A stretch of DNA of 64,000 bases from a virus (Duplodnaviria > Caudoviricetes): the IMG/VR virus record IMGVR_UViG_3300037781_000006, positions 1 to 64,000 of that record. One strand, 5' to 3'. A program made the position numbers and the translations under genes. Of this stretch, positions 16,941 through 20,678 are shown one piece after another; positions within the stretch are counted from its first letter, which is position 1, and the number at the start of each line of letters is the position of its first letter. The notes under the pieces were generated by a model. That model was given only the letters and a program-made list of their open reading frames with translations. It did not search any database and was not told the DNA's origin.

Positions 16941-16968
16941 GAAAAACCCCCGCCCGAAGGCGAGGGTT
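16941..16968 (-). terminator. Intrinsic terminator ending the middle-gene unit before the appendage module
   Basis: ACCCTCGCC-TTCG-GGCGGGGGT-TTTT; UUCG tetraloop. Confidence 0.85.
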
Positions 16969-17010: not shown

Positions 17011-17124
17011 TCACCTCCCTTCTTCGAACCAGCGGGAATAGAGTTTCTGGACCCATGACGGCTGGGGAAGGACGTTCCAGCCGATCACAAGACCGATCCC
17101 TACCCCTATGAGAAGTTCAAACAT
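17011..17124 (-). CDS. Small membrane protein (37 aa)
   Basis: MFELLIGVGIGLVIGWNVLPQP; 8-nt overlap with the upstream stop. Confidence 0.55.
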   Translation of the reverse strand: MFELLIGVGIGLVIGWNVLPQPSWVQKLYSRWFEEGR

Positions 17125-17329
17125 TCTGCACCTCCTTTGCTTCAACGGTTGCGAAGACTGCCAGATTCTTCGATTCCCAGAGGGAGCGAAGTGCAAGGGT
17201 CAGTTCTGCCGACGGGGGCAGCGTCTGGACCAGTTGCATGGCAAGGTCGTGGAACGGTTTCGAGGCTTCCTGAAGATGAGGCGGAAGGTGCTCGTACCGA
17301 AAAAGGCTTTTCACTTTGGTTTCATCCAT
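17117..17329 (-). CDS. Small helical-hairpin protein, Acb2/Tad1-hairpin-like (candidate nucleotide-signal sponge)
   Basis: FRYEHLPPHLQ...SAELTLALRSLWESKNLAV resembles the S-x-E-x-x-LA-x-T/R-K-L-x-E-A hairpin of Tad1/Acb2-like proteins. CDS confident, function inferred. Confidence 0.5.
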   Translation of the reverse strand: MDETKVKSLFRYEHLPPHLQEASKPFHDLAMQLVQTLPPSAELTLALRSLWESKNLAVFATVEAKEVQNV

Positions 17330-17555
17330 TGGAGACCATCTCCCAGTCTTCGGCCAACAGATCAGTCTGGCTTGCGAGCCATGGGACTTGATGTCCGTCA
17401 GCAGTTTTCATGTAGATGTACGGCAGGGTCATCTTGCTGTGTGCATCAGGAACCTGAAGCTCCAGCCACATACCCTTGCCATTCCATCCTTGACGAGCGA
17501 CTCGACCAGAGCCTGTCTTGAGGATCTCCAGTGCTCGTGAGAATGAAAAGGTCAT
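17322..17555 (-). CDS. DUF2829 / Tad2-like protein (Thoeris anti-defence sponge family)
   Basis: FSRALEILKTG..RVARQGWNGKGMWL...PWLASQTDLLAEDW is the DUF2829 signature. Confidence 0.85.
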   Translation of the reverse strand: MTFSFSRALEILKTGSGRVARQGWNGKGMWLELQVPDAHSKMTLPYIYMKTADGHQVPWLASQTDLLAEDWEMVSNG

Positions 17556-18718
17556 GAGGTTTCTCCAAATACTTGAGAGGCTTTCACCGTGAAACGGGAA
17601 GTCTCTCCTTCGAGTTCATCATAGATGACTGCCTGAGCCATCGCTGTCTCTCCGTAGGCTGAACCATAGAGGTCAGGCTCAGACCAGTTGGAGGCTTGTT
17701 CCCAGATCACACCGGGGAACTGCTCGACCTTACGGTGGTGCTTGTCTCCTGTCCAGACAGTGATGTGCTCGACATCAGCGATGTCCTTTCGATACCGCTG
17801 AAGGAATTGCATGACAAGGCGATCAGGCTTGATCTTGTCACCATGGTGTCCGAAGAGGGCCACCTTGCCGAAAATGTGTGCCCAGTAAGCATTGGGATCC
17901 ATCTCGACAGTCACATTGGACTGGTTGAAGTAGCGCCATTTGGCACCTTGCAGCAGACTGAGATAGCTGTCTCCGTCATGGTTTCCTCGCTTGATGACGA
18001 GGCGTACATCGGAGATTTGTGCAGCGATATCAGTGGTATGGATGATTTGTTCACCCGTGGTATCCACGACTTTGAAGTGACGAGAGTCAACGTCGAGGAT
18101 GTGGTCCGATCCGTGAGTGGCAGTCATCGGAACCTGTCCGTTGGCATGGAGAACATCACCGTTGTAGTACAGGATGATCTCTTGGACTTTCTCTTTCTCA
18201 ACGTGATCGAAGAGACGGCAGAGCCAGTCTTCGAGACGTTTCATGGCGATGGGAAGATCCCAGTCTCCGTATCCGGTTTCTGCTCCCCATGCGAGAGCAC
18301 CAGAATGCAAGTCATTGATGGAAATGAAGGCTTTCTTGACCCTGTTGGTCAGTAGAAGTGTGGGGGGTTTGAAGAGTACAGGAGGAGTTCCGATGAAGCG
18401 TTGAGCGATCTCTTCCATTCGCTGTTCTTCGGTCTTGGCCTGTTTGTCTTTCCGTGTGTTGAATTGGAAAGAGTAGGTGCGACCGTGCTTGTCTGGTTTC
18501 TGAGACTTGACCCATCCAAGTCCGGGGTCTCCGTCAAAACCAAGCTCATCCATTCCGTCGATGATTGCTTGGTCTAGTCCTTCTCGGGTTTCGAGTTTGG
18601 CTTCATAGGTCTGAATTGACCTTCGAGCAGTGGATTCATTGACTCCGAAATGAGCAGCCACAGACGAAAAGGATGGCTTGCCATTGGAGATCCAATAGTC
18701 GTGATACTTGTTGGCCAT
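17552..18718 (-). CDS. Calcineurin-like metallophosphoesterase with N-terminal HTH
   Basis: DLHSG, NGD(VLH), RGNHD, HHGD, TGDKHH metal-binding motifs; N-terminal FSSVAAHFGVNESTARR HTH. Confidence 0.8.
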   Translation of the reverse strand: MANKYHDYWISNGKPSFSSVAAHFGVNESTARRSIQTYEAKLETREGLDQAIIDGMDELGFDGDPGLGWVKSQKPDKHGRTYSFQFNTRKDKQAKTEEQRMEEIAQRFIGTPPVLFKPPTLLLTNRVKKAFISINDLHSGALAWGAETGYGDWDLPIAMKRLEDWLCRLFDHVEKEKVQEIILYYNGDVLHANGQVPMTATHGSDHILDVDSRHFKVVDTTGEQIIHTTDIAAQISDVRLVIKRGNHDGDSYLSLLQGAKWRYFNQSNVTVEMDPNAYWAHIFGKVALFGHHGDKIKPDRLVMQFLQRYRKDIADVEHITVWTGDKHHRKVEQFPGVIWEQASNWSEPDLYGSAYGETAMAQAVIYDELEGETSRFTVKASQVFGETS

Positions 18719-18765
18719 AGTGGGGATCCCTTCTTGGTGAGGTCAGGGATCCCCTATCATGCTGT

Positions 18766-19683
18766 CTACCCGTGGTAAACTTCATTTGGAATCAGCTTTC
18801 GATGCTGAATCCAGCCGGTGAGATTGCCATGCAGATGCTGAGAGTGCCATCCTTCCGGGTTTCCGGAAGTCGGACACTTGATCCGTTCATCAGGCTTGGC
18901 TTGATGCTCGAACGGTGAAGCATGGACACGCTCATCGTTCATCAGCAGATCTGCACGCTCCAGTTCAGCAGGGATCGAACCATCACCGTTGAACGGCTTG
19001 TAGGAGATCCGAGCACACCGAGCAGCAGACAGCTTCAGAAGGATGTTCGAGTGGTACTGTGTCATTTCTGCATCAGTGATGTACGGTAGATGCCATTCAC
19101 CGAGAGTCAGATTCTGAACATCAGCACGCTCAATGGCCATGGCCACGAGATTGGCCAGATCCTGAAGGTGAGGTTCTGCTGCATGGTGCTGACGAAGCCA
19201 GAGGAAGTTGTCCCACTGAGTCGCTGTGATCAGCGTGTCGATCCACGAGAAAGGCTCCAGCAGACGATTGGGGTTCTGCTTGTGGTAGCCAGCCTCCATG
19301 AAGGCTTCAGCCGTGTCAGCAGCCACGTCACGAGCGTAGAGCCATGCTTTCTCTCGATTGACGAACTCAGGAATCGTGGCTTCTTGGTTCTTCACGTAGG
19401 CTTCACACTCTTCGTCAGCCTGCATTCCTCGTTGGTTCTTGCCCCAGTGCCACGGCACATAGGGAGTGTTGCGAACCTCGTTCAGCATCGTTTTCACCGG
19501 CACAGCACGGGACGAACGAGCATTTCGACCAAAGACCCGGTGGGTCATGATCTCACCATGAATGGGACGCGGGTATCGCATCCGAATGGTGTAGAGATGT
19601 GGACACCCATTTGCGGCAGAGGCCAAGATGACCTCCACCTGCATCTGAGGTTGTCCGGGATGCGAATACACGACGTTATTCAT
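18766..19683 (-). CDS. thyX: FAD-dependent thymidylate synthase
   Basis: EIMTHRVFGRNARSSRA ThyX motif; SAARCARISY, HASPFEH. Confidence 0.88.
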   Translation of the reverse strand: MNNVVYSHPGQPQMQVEVILASAANGCPHLYTIRMRYPRPIHGEIMTHRVFGRNARSSRAVPVKTMLNEVRNTPYVPWHWGKNQRGMQADEECEAYVKNQEATIPEFVNREKAWLYARDVAADTAEAFMEAGYHKQNPNRLLEPFSWIDTLITATQWDNFLWLRQHHAAEPHLQDLANLVAMAIERADVQNLTLGEWHLPYITDAEMTQYHSNILLKLSAARCARISYKPFNGDGSIPAELERADLLMNDERVHASPFEHQAKPDERIKCPTSGNPEGWHSQHLHGNLTGWIQHRKLIPNEVYHG

Positions 19684-20227
19684 CGGGAAGCCTCCAGTGG
19701 AAACCATGGATCATGGTCAGTTGATGGTGGAATTCATCGACTTTCCTCTCCAGATCGGTGAGGGTTCCATCGTTCTTGATGCAGAAGTTCCAGAAGGAAC
19801 TGTCTTTGGTGATGTCCATGGATCCCGTCTCAGGAGGAAATCCGGGACGTTCAACCCAGACGATGAAGTCGAAGAGATTTGCCTGACGGCAAGCCTCAAG
19901 CTCATCCTGACGACGCATTCCGACGTACATATCCAGCCCACGAGAGAGCATGGTGGCAGCCGTCTTGGTCTTGTCAGGAGTGTTGTAGGCAGAGATCATC
20001 TCCATCCATGTCACTCGATGGTTGTGACGATCTTCGTACATCTCATCGAACGTGTCGTAGCGATCTTTGCCCCACTGCTCCCAGAGGCATTCTTCGGCTA
20101 CGAACTGGGAAGATGACTTGAATCTCAAGCCATAGTTGTCTCGGAGCATTTCTGCTACCGAGTCTTTCCCATGTCGTCCGTAGCCGAGAATGAGGAGCTT
20201 GGGTCTGCGCTCCTCATAATCAGCCAT
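19676..20227 (-). CDS. Deoxynucleoside monophosphate kinase-like protein
   Basis: N-terminal P-loop LILGYGRHGKDSVAE; located among nucleotide-metabolism genes. Confidence 0.72.
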   Translation of the reverse strand: MADYEERRPKLLILGYGRHGKDSVAEMLRDNYGLRFKSSSQFVAEECLWEQWGKDRYDTFDEMYEDRHNHRVTWMEMISAYNTPDKTKTAATMLSRGLDMYVGMRRQDELEACRQANLFDFIVWVERPGFPPETGSMDITKDSSFWNFCIKNDGTLTDLERKVDEFHHQLTMIHGFHWRLPDE

Positions 20228-20678
20228 TGAGAACACCCATCGCCCGCTTCACAGCGTCGAGGTCGCCTTCGACATTGCGTTTGGCAGAGTACATCTGCTG
20301 AAGCATGTTGGCTGTTTCAGCATGATCCATCCGTTCTTCCATGAGAGCGGAGGTCAGTTCACCGATGCGAACCTGCTGTTCCATGGTGGTTTCAGCAGCG
20401 ATCTCCATGACGCCAGCGAGGAATTGCCCCATCTGGTTGGTGAAAGCGATGTGCTGGGTGGCTTTGCGATGTCGCTGCTCCGACTTGGCGAGCAGATCTT
20501 GCAGAGCGATCATGGCACGAGGAATGTCGGTGCCTTCGAAGCCCATCTGGTCGATACGTTTGCCCTGCTTGTGAGCACGAGCAACCATCGTCCGGACTTC
20601 TTTCATCCGACGCTTCTTGAACTCCTTGGTTTCCTCAGTCGGAACCATGGCAGTCACGTTGGTATTGGCTTTGGTCAT
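20220..20678 (-). CDS. Hypothetical coiled-coil protein (152 aa)
   Basis: SD GGAGG; overlaps the kinase start. Confidence 0.7.
   Translation of the reverse strand: MTKANTNVTAMVPTEETKEFKKRRMKEVRTMVARAHKQGKRIDQMGFEGTDIPRAMIALQDLLAKSEQRHRKATQHIAFTNQMGQFLAGVMEIAAETTMEQQVRIGELTSALMEERMDHAETANMLQQMYSAKRNVEGDLDAVKRAMGVLNG

What the first reader, a model, noticed from the sequence alone, without database searches (positions are those of the whole stretch)
17011..18718. Coupled four-gene anti-immune-signalling cassette: phosphoesterase + Tad2-like + Acb2/Tad1-hairpin-like + membrane peptide
Seen: four genes chained by 4-8 nt start/stop overlaps (ATGA, ATGGATGA, ATGTTTGA), ending at a UUCG terminator. 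The second gene has a clear DUF2829 signature. Established: DUF2829 includes Tad2, which sequesters Thoeris gcADPR and some cyclic dinucleotides, and Tad1/Acb2 are helical sponges for Thoeris/CBASS signals. Inference: two different sponges co-translated with a calcineurin-like hydrolase may form a 'bind and destroy' module against nucleotide second messengers, with the phosphoesterase as an uncharacterised signal-degrading enzyme. The known anti-defence nucleases Acb1 (2H) and Apyc1 (MBL) have other folds.
Basis: partly seen in the sequence, partly recalled or inferred. Interest (0 to 1): 0.8.

Follow-up and report, generated by a model that had tools for sequence, protein, structure and literature searches.

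The report
Tad2-like sponge inserted in roseophage operon
In this N4-like marine roseophage, a real Tad2-type immune-signal sponge gene has been dropped into an older, conserved three-gene block (a DNA-binding phosphoesterase, a small helical protein and a membrane peptide), so the proposed four-gene 'bind and destroy' machine is not supported.

Summary
Four minus-strand genes are chained by ATGA, ATGGATGA and ATGTTTGA overlaps and end at a UUCG hairpin with a U-run.

The window is an N4-like roseophage (Schitoviridae, Rhodovirinae).

- **Gene 2** is a true Tad2-like protein (PF11195, E 5e-25). It keeps 8 of 10 gcADPR-contact residues of SPO1 Tad2. It is a ~230-nt accessory insertion, absent from all listed isolate roseophages and from the closest relative (92% identical phosphoesterase).
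- **Gene 1**, the phosphoesterase, has an N-terminal HTH and Mre11/PolD-DP1-like motifs. Its family occurs in about 2000 phage records. Sponge genes lay beside it only in these roseophages. A role in degrading immune signals is therefore unsupported.
- **Gene 3** belongs to a very large unannotated phage family. It fails the Acb2/Tad1 Pfam and profile tests, but weak structural and language-model signals point toward that family.
  - Published homologues were predicted to be hexamers.
  - They did not inhibit Thoeris I/II, cGAMP-CBASS or Pycsar.
  - The domain occurs fused to Sequestin.
  - A roseophage homologue was found in virions.

Tad2 genes in N4-like phages are already published, at a different hotspot. 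This scan also noted the 70-aa hairpin before, on this same genome. Moderate interest.

The parts
18719..18756 (-). Conserved 10-bp RNA hairpin immediately upstream of the phosphoesterase start. Its 3' arm covers the Shine-Dalgarno region.
   Evidence: Fold energy -22.7 kcal/mol, z -2.4 in the window. The same hairpin occurs in three relatives (z -3.3 to -5.4) with two compensatory pair changes, GGGGAUCCC/GGGAUCCCC versus GGGAGUCCC/GGGACUCCC.
17552..18718 (-). g1: 388-aa protein with an N-terminal helix-turn-helix, a linker and a C-terminal calcineurin-like metallophosphoesterase (phrog_704, annotated 'DNA repair exonuclease').
   Evidence: phrog_704 E 1e-92. Weak Pfam HTH_28/HTH_23 and Metallophos hits. 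Invariant D136, H138, D188, H191, N246, H247, H291/H292 and H327. AF2 pLDDT 83.6. VIA Z 15.5 to PolD DP1, about 14 to Mre11 and MJ0936, about 13 to SbcD and LpxH.
17322..17555 (-). g2: 77-aa Tad2-like (DUF2829) protein, a short form lacking the alpha2 loop. It is an accessory insertion.
   Evidence: PF11195 E 5e-25. PDB hits to SptTad2, SPO1 Tad2, ModTad2 and AcrIIA7 at E 1e-12 to 6e-14. Absent from relatives.
17117..17329 (-). g3: 70-aa three-helix hairpin protein (phrog_1761) from a very large unannotated phage family.
   Evidence: AF2 pLDDT 97.1. 4973 representative clusters at E<=1e-3. No Pfam family. The homologue RLP1 orf28 / RPP1 gp28 was found in virions.
17011..17124 (-). g4: 37-aa single-pass membrane peptide (phrog_20849), seen only in the roseophage loci among those surveyed.
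   Evidence: phrog_20849 E 1.2e-24. Found next to g3 only in the N4-like roseophage loci. Has a hydrophobic stretch FELLIGVGIGLVIGWNVL.
16944..16968 (-). Intrinsic-terminator-like hairpin with a UUCG loop and U-run that closes the gene block.

Best explanation
This is a middle-gene block of an N4-like roseophage. The ancestral unit has three genes: an HTH-tethered metallophosphoesterase with nuclease-type motifs, a small helical-hairpin protein, and a 37-aa membrane peptide. It lies between thyX and a second structural module.

A ~230-nt cassette carrying a short Tad2-like gene was inserted at the junction between the phosphoesterase and the hairpin gene. The insert brings its own ribosome-binding site. 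It also recreates the same TCCAATGGATGA stop/start junction, so the new gene is co-translated with its neighbours.

Inferred: the Tad2-like protein forms an oligomer that sequesters a TIR-derived or related nucleotide immune signal (gcADPR-type is most likely). The exact ligand cannot be read from the sequence.

Inferred: the phosphoesterase acts on DNA or another nucleic-acid substrate (replication, repair or host-DNA processing), not on immune signals.

The hairpin protein's role is open. It may be a divergent Acb2-like oligomeric binder of an untested ligand, or a virion-associated protein.
For: Identity of the phage:
- 75-80% nucleotide identity to DFL12phi1, R2C, EE36phi1 and DSS3phi2.

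Tad2-like gene:
- PF11195 matches over its full length.
- Mapping onto the residues listed in bioRxiv 10.1101/2023.05.01.538930: W24, N25, T51, D53, W59, S62, T64 and D65 equal SPO1 W25, N26, T65, D67, W73, S76, T78 and D79. I63 becomes M and H71 becomes V.

Insertion:
- Every listed roseophage record aligns in two pieces that skip g2.
- DFL12phi1 goes directly from the phosphoesterase to the hairpin gene.
- The closest relative (92% identical phosphoesterase) also lacks g2.
- A more distant relative (81% identical, IMGVR_UViG_3300027082_000001) has it at the same site.
- The nearest Tad2-like homologues are in unrelated phages: Acinetobacter XC38 71%, Mycobacterium Curiosium 68%.

Phosphoesterase:
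- All metallophosphoesterase (MPE) motifs are invariant, with GDxxH and GNHD as in Mre11.
- HTH Pfam hits occur in the query and in many homologues.
- The family occurs in 2006 phage records, including T1-like, Jersey-like and Webervirus phages.
- In a T1-like phage (Hanrivervirus) it lies between replication and lysis genes.
- In 81 loci, g3 and g4 occur only in 7 roseophage loci and g2 in 1.
Against: - No biochemical test exists for any of the four proteins.
- The Tad2-like protein lacks the alpha2 loop that forms the V-shaped dimer in SPO1 Tad2, so its oligomer may differ. I could not fold it.
- MPE-fold enzymes can hydrolyse cyclic nucleotides (Rv0805 and GpdQ score only slightly lower). 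Chemistry therefore does not exclude signal cleavage.
- Nuclease-fold proteins next to sponges (Bes1) do help N4-like phages evade signalling defences by an unknown route.
Confidence: 0.7

Rival explanations
1. One reading: the four genes form one functional 'bind and destroy' unit, in which two sponges capture immune nucleotides and the phosphoesterase hydrolyses them.
For: The genes are tightly coupled in translation. The MPE fold includes cyclic-nucleotide phosphodiesterases such as Rv0805 among its structural neighbours.
Against: The phosphoesterase-hairpin-peptide block exists without the Tad2 gene in all listed isolates and in the closest relative. One roseophage keeps the hairpin gene with a different 405-aa protein in place of the phosphoesterase. 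74 of 81 phosphoesterase loci have no g2 or g3 nearby. The protein has an N-terminal HTH and Mre11-like motifs.
Confidence: 0.07
2. Two-sponge island without the enzyme: the hairpin protein g3 is itself a divergent Acb2-like hexameric sponge for a signal not yet tested. The Tad2-like gene landed beside it because this site is a small anti-signalling locus.
For: - The nearest ESM Atlas clusters carry PF24729 on 14-18% of members.
- 12 of the top 50 BFVD structural hits are 'Acb2/Tad1 hairpin domain' proteins, at E 0.05-2 and TM 0.5-0.7.
- Sub-threshold PF24729 hits occur in family members.
- At least three family members were predicted as hexamers and passed a positive-pocket filter (Table S2 of bioRxiv 10.1101/2025.07.12.664507).
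- The same domain is fused to the verified 3'cADPR sponge Sequestin in at least 12 listed proteins. The C-terminal part matches PF21825 at E 4e-15 and the N-terminal part matches the g3 profile at 99.4% probability.
- Gene neighbourhoods are highly variable.
Against: - PF24729 finds nothing in this genome.
- hhalign against the T4 Vs.4 clade gives probability 0.4%.
- No PDB match by profile or by fold.
- The tested homologues gave no culture collapse with Thoeris I, Thoeris II, cGAMP-CBASS or Pycsar wherever transformation worked.
- The protein is net acidic.
Confidence: 0.3
3. g3, possibly together with g4, is a virion- or morphogenesis-associated protein that belongs with the adjacent second structural module, and has no role against host defence.
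For: The RPP1/RLP1 homologue gp28 was identified by mass spectrometry in CsCl-purified virions (PMC4193335; record annotation). Homologues lie inside head and packaging modules in Gordonia phage DumpsterDude (between the connector and adaptor genes) and in Vibrio phage martha (between the small and large terminase genes).
Against: The same study also found a nucleotide-metabolism-region protein (gp25) in virions, so abundant non-structural proteins may have been carried over. Family members also lie among early genes, for example Mycobacterium phage Nazo. No neighbour is conserved across 80 loci.
Confidence: 0.2
4. The DUF2829 protein acts as an anti-CRISPR (AcrIIA7-like) rather than as a signal sponge.
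For: PDB hits include AcrIIA7 and an 'Inhibitor of Type II CRISPR-Cas system' at E about 1e-12 to 4e-13.
Against: The gcADPR-pocket residues are conserved. The Tad2 authors argue that DUF2829 proteins are anti-Thoeris sponges rather than anti-CRISPRs. Tested Tad2 homologues inhibit Thoeris, CBASS or Pycsar.
Confidence: 0.08

Closest known systems
Tad2 (Thoeris anti-defence 2, DUF2829/PF11195; SPO1 gp34.65, PDB 8SME/8SMG)
   Same: Full-length Pfam match. The GWNGK and SQTDxLAEDW motifs are present. 8 of 10 ligand or water-coordinating residues are identical.
   Different: 77 aa instead of 89 aa. The beta2-beta3 loop with helix alpha2, which forms the dimer interface, is replaced by about 6 residues. 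The ligand is unknown: Tad2 homologues bind 3'cADPR, His-ADPR, N7-cADPR, cGAMP or cUMP.
Anti-signalling hotspot of N4-like phages (Fedorova et al., bioRxiv 10.64898/2026.06.04.730250)
   Same: A Schitoviridae genome has acquired a Tad2-type gene within a run of small middle genes.
   Different: The published hotspot lies between the primase-polymerase and the virion RNA polymerase. This insertion lies next to thyX, upstream of the rIIA-like gene. No Acb4, Sequestin or Acb2 Pfam match exists in this genome.
Acb2 / Tad1 hairpin domain (PF24729; T4 Vs.4, PaMx33 Acb2)
   Same: g3 has two long antiparallel helices after a short N-terminal segment. Its helix-2 motif ALRxLWEsKNxAV resembles AKxRLKEASMWACRAV. 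Homologues are predicted to be hexamers. Structural and language-model neighbours are enriched for this domain.
   Different: No Pfam hit at E<=10 in this genome. Profile-profile probability is 0.4%. No PDB Acb2 or Tad1 hit. Homologues did not inhibit cGAMP-CBASS or Thoeris I.
Mre11/SbcD and PolD DP1 nuclease-type metallophosphoesterases
   Same: g1 has the same fold (Z 13-15.5) and all five metal-binding motifs, including GDxxH and GNHD.
   Different: No capping domain and no adjacent Rad50/SbcC partner. It has an N-terminal HTH domain instead. Small-molecule phosphodiesterases (MJ0936, LpxH, GpdQ) score almost as high.
Mycobacteriophage cluster-A phosphoesterase Gp48 (EMBO Rep 2025, PMC12287305)
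   Same: A phage MPE with phosphodiesterase activity, reported to damage host DNA and thereby blunt host defences.
   Different: A different architecture: motif I starts at residue 10 and there is no HTH. No sequence relationship was shown here.

Membership tests
Tad2 / DUF2829 (PF11195) | Pfam match above the gathering score over the full domain | tested here: met
   88.3 bits against a cut-off of 25, profile positions 2-73 of 73; 87.2 bits in the genome search.
Tad2 / DUF2829 (PF11195) | Conserved gcADPR pocket residues of SPO1 Tad2 (W25, N26, I63, T65, D67, H71, W73, S76, T78, D79) | tested here: met
   8 of 10 identical, I63 to M49, H71 to V57. Based on the alignment and the residue list.
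Tad2 / DUF2829 (PF11195) | Homotetramer with pockets between protomers | not testable with these tools
   No multimer prediction was available. The alpha2 dimerisation loop is shortened.
Tad2 / DUF2829 (PF11195) | Binds an immune nucleotide and rescues the phage on a signalling defence | not testable with these tools
   Needs a bench assay.
Acb2/Tad1 hairpin (PF24729) | Pfam match at or above 27 bits | tested here: not met
   No candidate in the whole genome at E<=10. 5 of 148 family representatives hit, best E 0.0058. The positive control, T4 Vs.4, scored 71 bits.
Acb2/Tad1 hairpin (PF24729) | Profile-profile similarity to an established Acb2 clade | tested here: not met
   hhalign of A4 against the T4 Vs.4 alignment A5: probability 0.4%, E 0.17, 25 columns in helix 2 only. 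The Vs.4 alignment is narrow.
Acb2/Tad1 hairpin (PF24729) | Two long antiparallel helices; structural neighbours are Acb2/Tad1 proteins | tested here: inconclusive
   Hairpin model at pLDDT 97. Nothing specific in the PDB searches. In BFVD, 12 of the top 50 hits are annotated Acb2/Tad1 hairpin, but at E 0.05-2.
Acb2/Tad1 hairpin (PF24729) | Homohexamer that sequesters cyclic nucleotides | not testable with these tools
   Homologues were predicted as hexamers and were negative against five systems in Table S2 of bioRxiv 10.1101/2025.07.12.664507.
Sequestin (PF21825) | Pfam match | tested here: not met
   No candidate in the genome. However, the g3 domain occurs fused to PF21825 in other phages.
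Calcineurin-like metallophosphoesterase superfamily | Five metal-binding motifs and the alpha/beta sandwich fold | tested here: met
   Invariant DxH, GDxxH, GNHD, HH and GDKH. Z 12-15.5 to many MPEs. The PF00149 score of 15.6 bits is below its 21.5-bit cut-off.
Mre11/SbcD DNA nucleases | Adjacent Rad50/SbcC ATPase partner and a capping domain | tested here: not met
   The neighbours are thyX and the small genes. The model has no capping domain after residue 388.
Known signal-degrading anti-defence enzymes (Acb1, Apyc1, Acb5) | 2H, MBL or Acb5 tetramer fold, with shown cleavage of an immune nucleotide | tested here: not met
   g1 has the MPE fold. Acb5 is a small, unrelated tetramer. Activity is not testable here.
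Published N4-like anti-signalling hotspot | Located between the primase-polymerase and the virion RNA polymerase | tested here: not met
   The cassette lies between thyX / the N4 gp25-like gene and the rIIA-like gene, against the definition.

The most novel reading that the evidence does not exclude
The 70-aa hairpin protein (g3) represents a very large family of phage immune-signal binders that has not been functionally assigned. It has about 5000 representative clusters and no Pfam model. It may be a divergent Acb2-like hexamer whose ligand lies outside the five signals tested so far. It is fixed in one roseophage lineage, is sometimes packaged in virions, and is fused to Sequestin in other phages.
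Probability: 0.3. Interest if true: 0.7.

Novelty: new member of a known kind. Interest (0 to 1): 0.4.

Why it matters
The finding gives a clean natural example of how a sponge gene is gained. A ~230-nt cassette slots into an existing translationally coupled junction, and its presence or absence differs between phages whose neighbouring gene is 81-92% identical.

It marks a second acquisition site in N4-like phages, separate from the published hotspot.

It removes a tempting but unsupported idea, that an HTH-phosphoesterase found in about 2000 phage records is a signal-degrading enzyme.

It points to the hairpin family as a worthwhile target. That family passed a published sponge-prediction pipeline, failed five assays, and yet is fused to a verified sponge.

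Tried and rejected
- **PDB sequence and profile searches for g3** found nothing.
- **Foldseek PDB and VIA wide search for g3** returned only generic helical hairpins. Acb2, Tad1 and Sequestin did not appear among the listed rows.
- **hhalign of g3 against T4 Vs.3/TadIV-1** gave probability 0.1%.
- **NCBIfam** had nothing for any of the four proteins.
- **ESM Atlas on the N-terminal part of g1** was uninformative.
- **Acinetobacter phage XC38:** I considered that its 'exonuclease' next to a Tad2-like gene might be a second MPE-Tad2 pairing. It is not an MPE.
- **Escape-mutant literature:** I searched for links to this phosphoesterase family. Only unrelated bacterial Calcineurin-CE defence systems came up.
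- **Supplements of the Acb2/Tad1/Tad2 diversity paper:** I searched for g3-type motifs and found none in the stored text. This is inconclusive because the stored files may not hold all the sequences.
Full report
**What is there**

The window is a 64-kb part of a 75,106-bp virus record with direct terminal repeats. The region shares 75-80% nucleotide identity with N4-like roseophages of the Schitoviridae subfamily Rhodovirinae: DFL12phi1, vBDshPR2C, EE36phi1, DSS3phi2 and the RPP1/RLP1 phages.

The four genes of the finding lie on the minus strand:
- g1 at 17552-18718, 388 aa
- g2 at 17322-17555, 77 aa
- g3 at 17117-17329, 70 aa
- g4 at 17011-17124, 37 aa

The overlaps ATGA, ATGGATGA and ATGTTTGA are as described. 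A UUCG hairpin followed by a U-run lies at about 16944-16968. Such overlaps are common in phage operons and do not by themselves prove a common function.

**Gene 2 is a real Tad2-like protein**

- It matches PF11195 over the whole domain (E 5.1e-25; 7.2e-26 in the genome search).
- It matches solved Tad2 proteins (SptTad2, SPO1 gp34.65, ModTad2) and AcrIIA7 at E 1e-12 to 6e-14.
- I mapped the HMMER alignment onto the ligand-contact residues reported for SPO1 Tad2 (bioRxiv 10.1101/2023.05.01.538930). Eight of ten residues are identical (W24, N25, T51, D53, W59, S62, T64, D65). I63 becomes M and H71 becomes V.
- The protein is a short form. About 19 residues, including helix alpha2 that forms the V-shaped dimer in SPO1 Tad2, are replaced by about six.
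- Tad2 homologues bind very different signals: 3'cADPR, His-ADPR, N7-cADPR, cGAMP and cUMP (bioRxiv 10.1101/2025.08.24.671296). The ligand therefore cannot be named from sequence.

**Gene 2 is an accessory insertion**

- Every listed roseophage record aligns to the region in two pieces that skip g2. The only DNA matches to g2 come from unrelated phages.
- DFL12phi1 goes directly from the phosphoesterase to the g3 homologue and the g4 homologue.
- The closest relative I found has a phosphoesterase 92% identical (GCA_002754915 contig). It also lacks g2: its phosphoesterase stop overlaps the g3 start at TCCAATGGATGA.
- In the window the same junction is used by the Tad2-like stop. The ~230-nt insert carries its own GGAG and ATG.
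- A more distant relative (81% identical phosphoesterase, IMGVR_UViG_3300027082_000001) has the insert at the same site.
- The nearest protein homologues are in Acinetobacter phage XC38 (71%), Mycobacterium phage Curiosium (68%) and Aeromonas phage Ahp1 (65%).
- In XC38, also a Schitoviridae member, the Tad2-like gene follows the RNR beta gene. The next gene, annotated 'exonuclease', is not an MPE.

**Gene 1, the phosphoesterase**

- The family alignment keeps all metallophosphoesterase motifs invariant: D136xH138, G187D188xxH191, G245N246H247D, H291/H292 and H327.
- The N-terminus gives weak HTH hits (HTH_28 E 0.003, HTH_23). Many homologues carry precomputed HTH or sigma-70 region 4 Pfam hits.
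- The AF2 model (pLDDT 83.6) shows a helical N-terminal domain, a less confident linker and an MPE domain.
- Structural neighbours are PolD DP1 exonuclease (Z 15.5, rmsd 3.6, 228 aligned), MJ0936 phosphodiesterase (14.1), Mre11 (14.0), LpxH and SbcD (about 13). The fold is certain but the substrate is not.
- The family (phrog_704, E 1e-92) occurs in 2006 phage records, mostly T1-like, Jersey-like, Webervirus and Vibrio phages.
  - In a T1-like phage (Hanrivervirus) it lies between replication genes and the lysis cassette.
  - In a Jerseyvirus it lies in a small island with an HNH endonuclease and Ant.
- In 81 loci around homologues, g3 and g4 homologues occur only in seven N4-like roseophage loci, and a DUF2829 gene in one.
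- One roseophage, RD-1410W1-01, keeps g3 but has an unrelated 405-aa protein in place of the phosphoesterase.
- I found no paper that assigns this family a role in signal degradation. A different mycobacteriophage MPE was reported to damage host DNA (PMC12287305).

**Gene 3, the hairpin protein**

The AF2 model is very confident (pLDDT 97.1): a short helix followed by a long two-helix hairpin. A profile search found 4973 representative clusters at E<=1e-3. No Pfam family covers them.

Tests against Acb2/Tad1:
- PF24729 finds nothing in this genome at E<=10, while T4 Vs.4 scores 71 bits.
- hhalign against a T4 Vs.4 alignment gives probability 0.4%, aligning only the helix-2 motif.
- Profile searches of the PDB and two PDB fold searches give nothing specific.

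Weak signals that point the other way:
- The nearest ESM Atlas clusters carry PF24729 on 14-18% of members.
- 5 of 148 representatives and two further homologues have sub-threshold PF24729 hits.
- 12 of the top 50 BFVD structural hits are annotated as Acb2/Tad1 hairpin domain proteins, at E 0.05-2.

I therefore call the resemblance real but unproven, and membership not met.

**Published data bearing on gene 3**

- In the structure-guided sponge screen of Tal et al. (bioRxiv 10.1101/2025.07.12.664507), Table S2 contains at least three proteins of this family (61, 66 and 74 aa). They were predicted as hexamers and had been selected for positively charged inter-protomer pockets. [quoted passage not shown]
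- Table S1 of the same paper lists Sequestin homologues. It contains at least 12 entries whose N-terminal half carries the family motif. For one of them I checked both halves: the C-terminal part matches PF21825 (E 4.1e-15) and the N-terminal part matches the g3 profile (probability 99.4%, E 1.8e-21). Fusion to known sponges is the same logic that led to the discovery of Sequestin.
- In 80 loci around family members no neighbour is conserved. Ten of 147 representatives are tandem duplications.
- The homologue in RPP1/RLP1 (gp28/orf28) was detected by mass spectrometry in purified virions (PMC4193335).
- Some homologues lie inside head or packaging modules.

The function stays open between a binder of an untested ligand and a virion-associated role.

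**Gene 4**

g4 is a 37-aa single-pass membrane peptide (phrog_20849, E 1.2e-24). In the surveys here it was found only in these roseophage loci and always after g3. I have no evidence for its role.

**Comparison with what is known**

Tad2, Tad3, Acb4, Sequestin and the Bes1/Bes2 proteins have been described in an acquisition hotspot of N4-like phages, between the primase-polymerase and the virion RNA polymerase (bioRxiv 10.64898/2026.06.04.730250). The present site is a different one, between thyX / the N4 gp25-like gene and the rIIA-like gene. This genome has no Pfam-detectable Acb4, Sequestin or Acb2.

The finding is thus a new member of a known kind (a Tad2-like gene in a roseophage) at a new site. 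It sits beside an uncharacterised but intriguing small-protein family.

**Verdict**

  - Tad2-like: yes.
  - Acb2-like: weak.
  - 'Bind and destroy': no.
- Interest is moderate, carried mainly by the clean insertion event and by the hairpin family.

Noticed in passing
window 18719-18756 (minus strand); also L167:2449-2509, L001:7498-7558, L004:3950-4010: A 10-bp hairpin just upstream of the phosphoesterase start is conserved in three relatives, with two compensatory base-pair changes (G-C/A-U swapped to A-U/G-C). Its 3' arm covers the Shine-Dalgarno region. It is likely a translational or RNA-stability element.
   Followed up: partly
Table S1 of bioRxiv 10.1101/2025.07.12.664507 (not in the window): At least 12 listed Sequestin homologues carry an N-terminal domain of the g3 family. 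This natural fusion is not discussed in the sections of that paper that I read.
   Followed up: partly
L087:2562-4409 (Roseobacter phage RD-1410W1-01): This N4-like roseophage keeps the g3 homologue but has an unrelated 405-aa lysine-rich protein where the phosphoesterase sits. A different 67-aa ORF replaces g4. The slot is therefore variable.
   Followed up: no
L166:3492-3716 (Acinetobacter phage VB_ApiP_XC38): Another Schitoviridae phage carries a 74-aa Tad2-like gene, 71% identical to g2. It overlaps the end of the RNR beta-subunit gene, again outside the published hotspot.
   Followed up: partly
L170:1468-1683 and L171:1474-1680: g3-family genes lie between head-tail connector and adaptor genes in Gordonia phage DumpsterDude. 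In Vibrio phage martha one lies between the small and large terminase genes.
   Followed up: no
window 19676-20236 and 18766-19707 (minus strand): Upstream of the cassette lie thyX and, by homology to DFL12phi1 gp57 and to PF18909 in the relative, a dGTP/dATP pyrophosphohydrolase-like gene. The RPP1 homologue of the latter was also reported in virions.
   Followed up: no
whole record: The assembly appears to be circularly permuted relative to the N4 map. Middle genes run leftward from about 36.8 kb to position 1, and late genes plus the virion RNA polymerase (54351 onward) run rightward.
   Followed up: no
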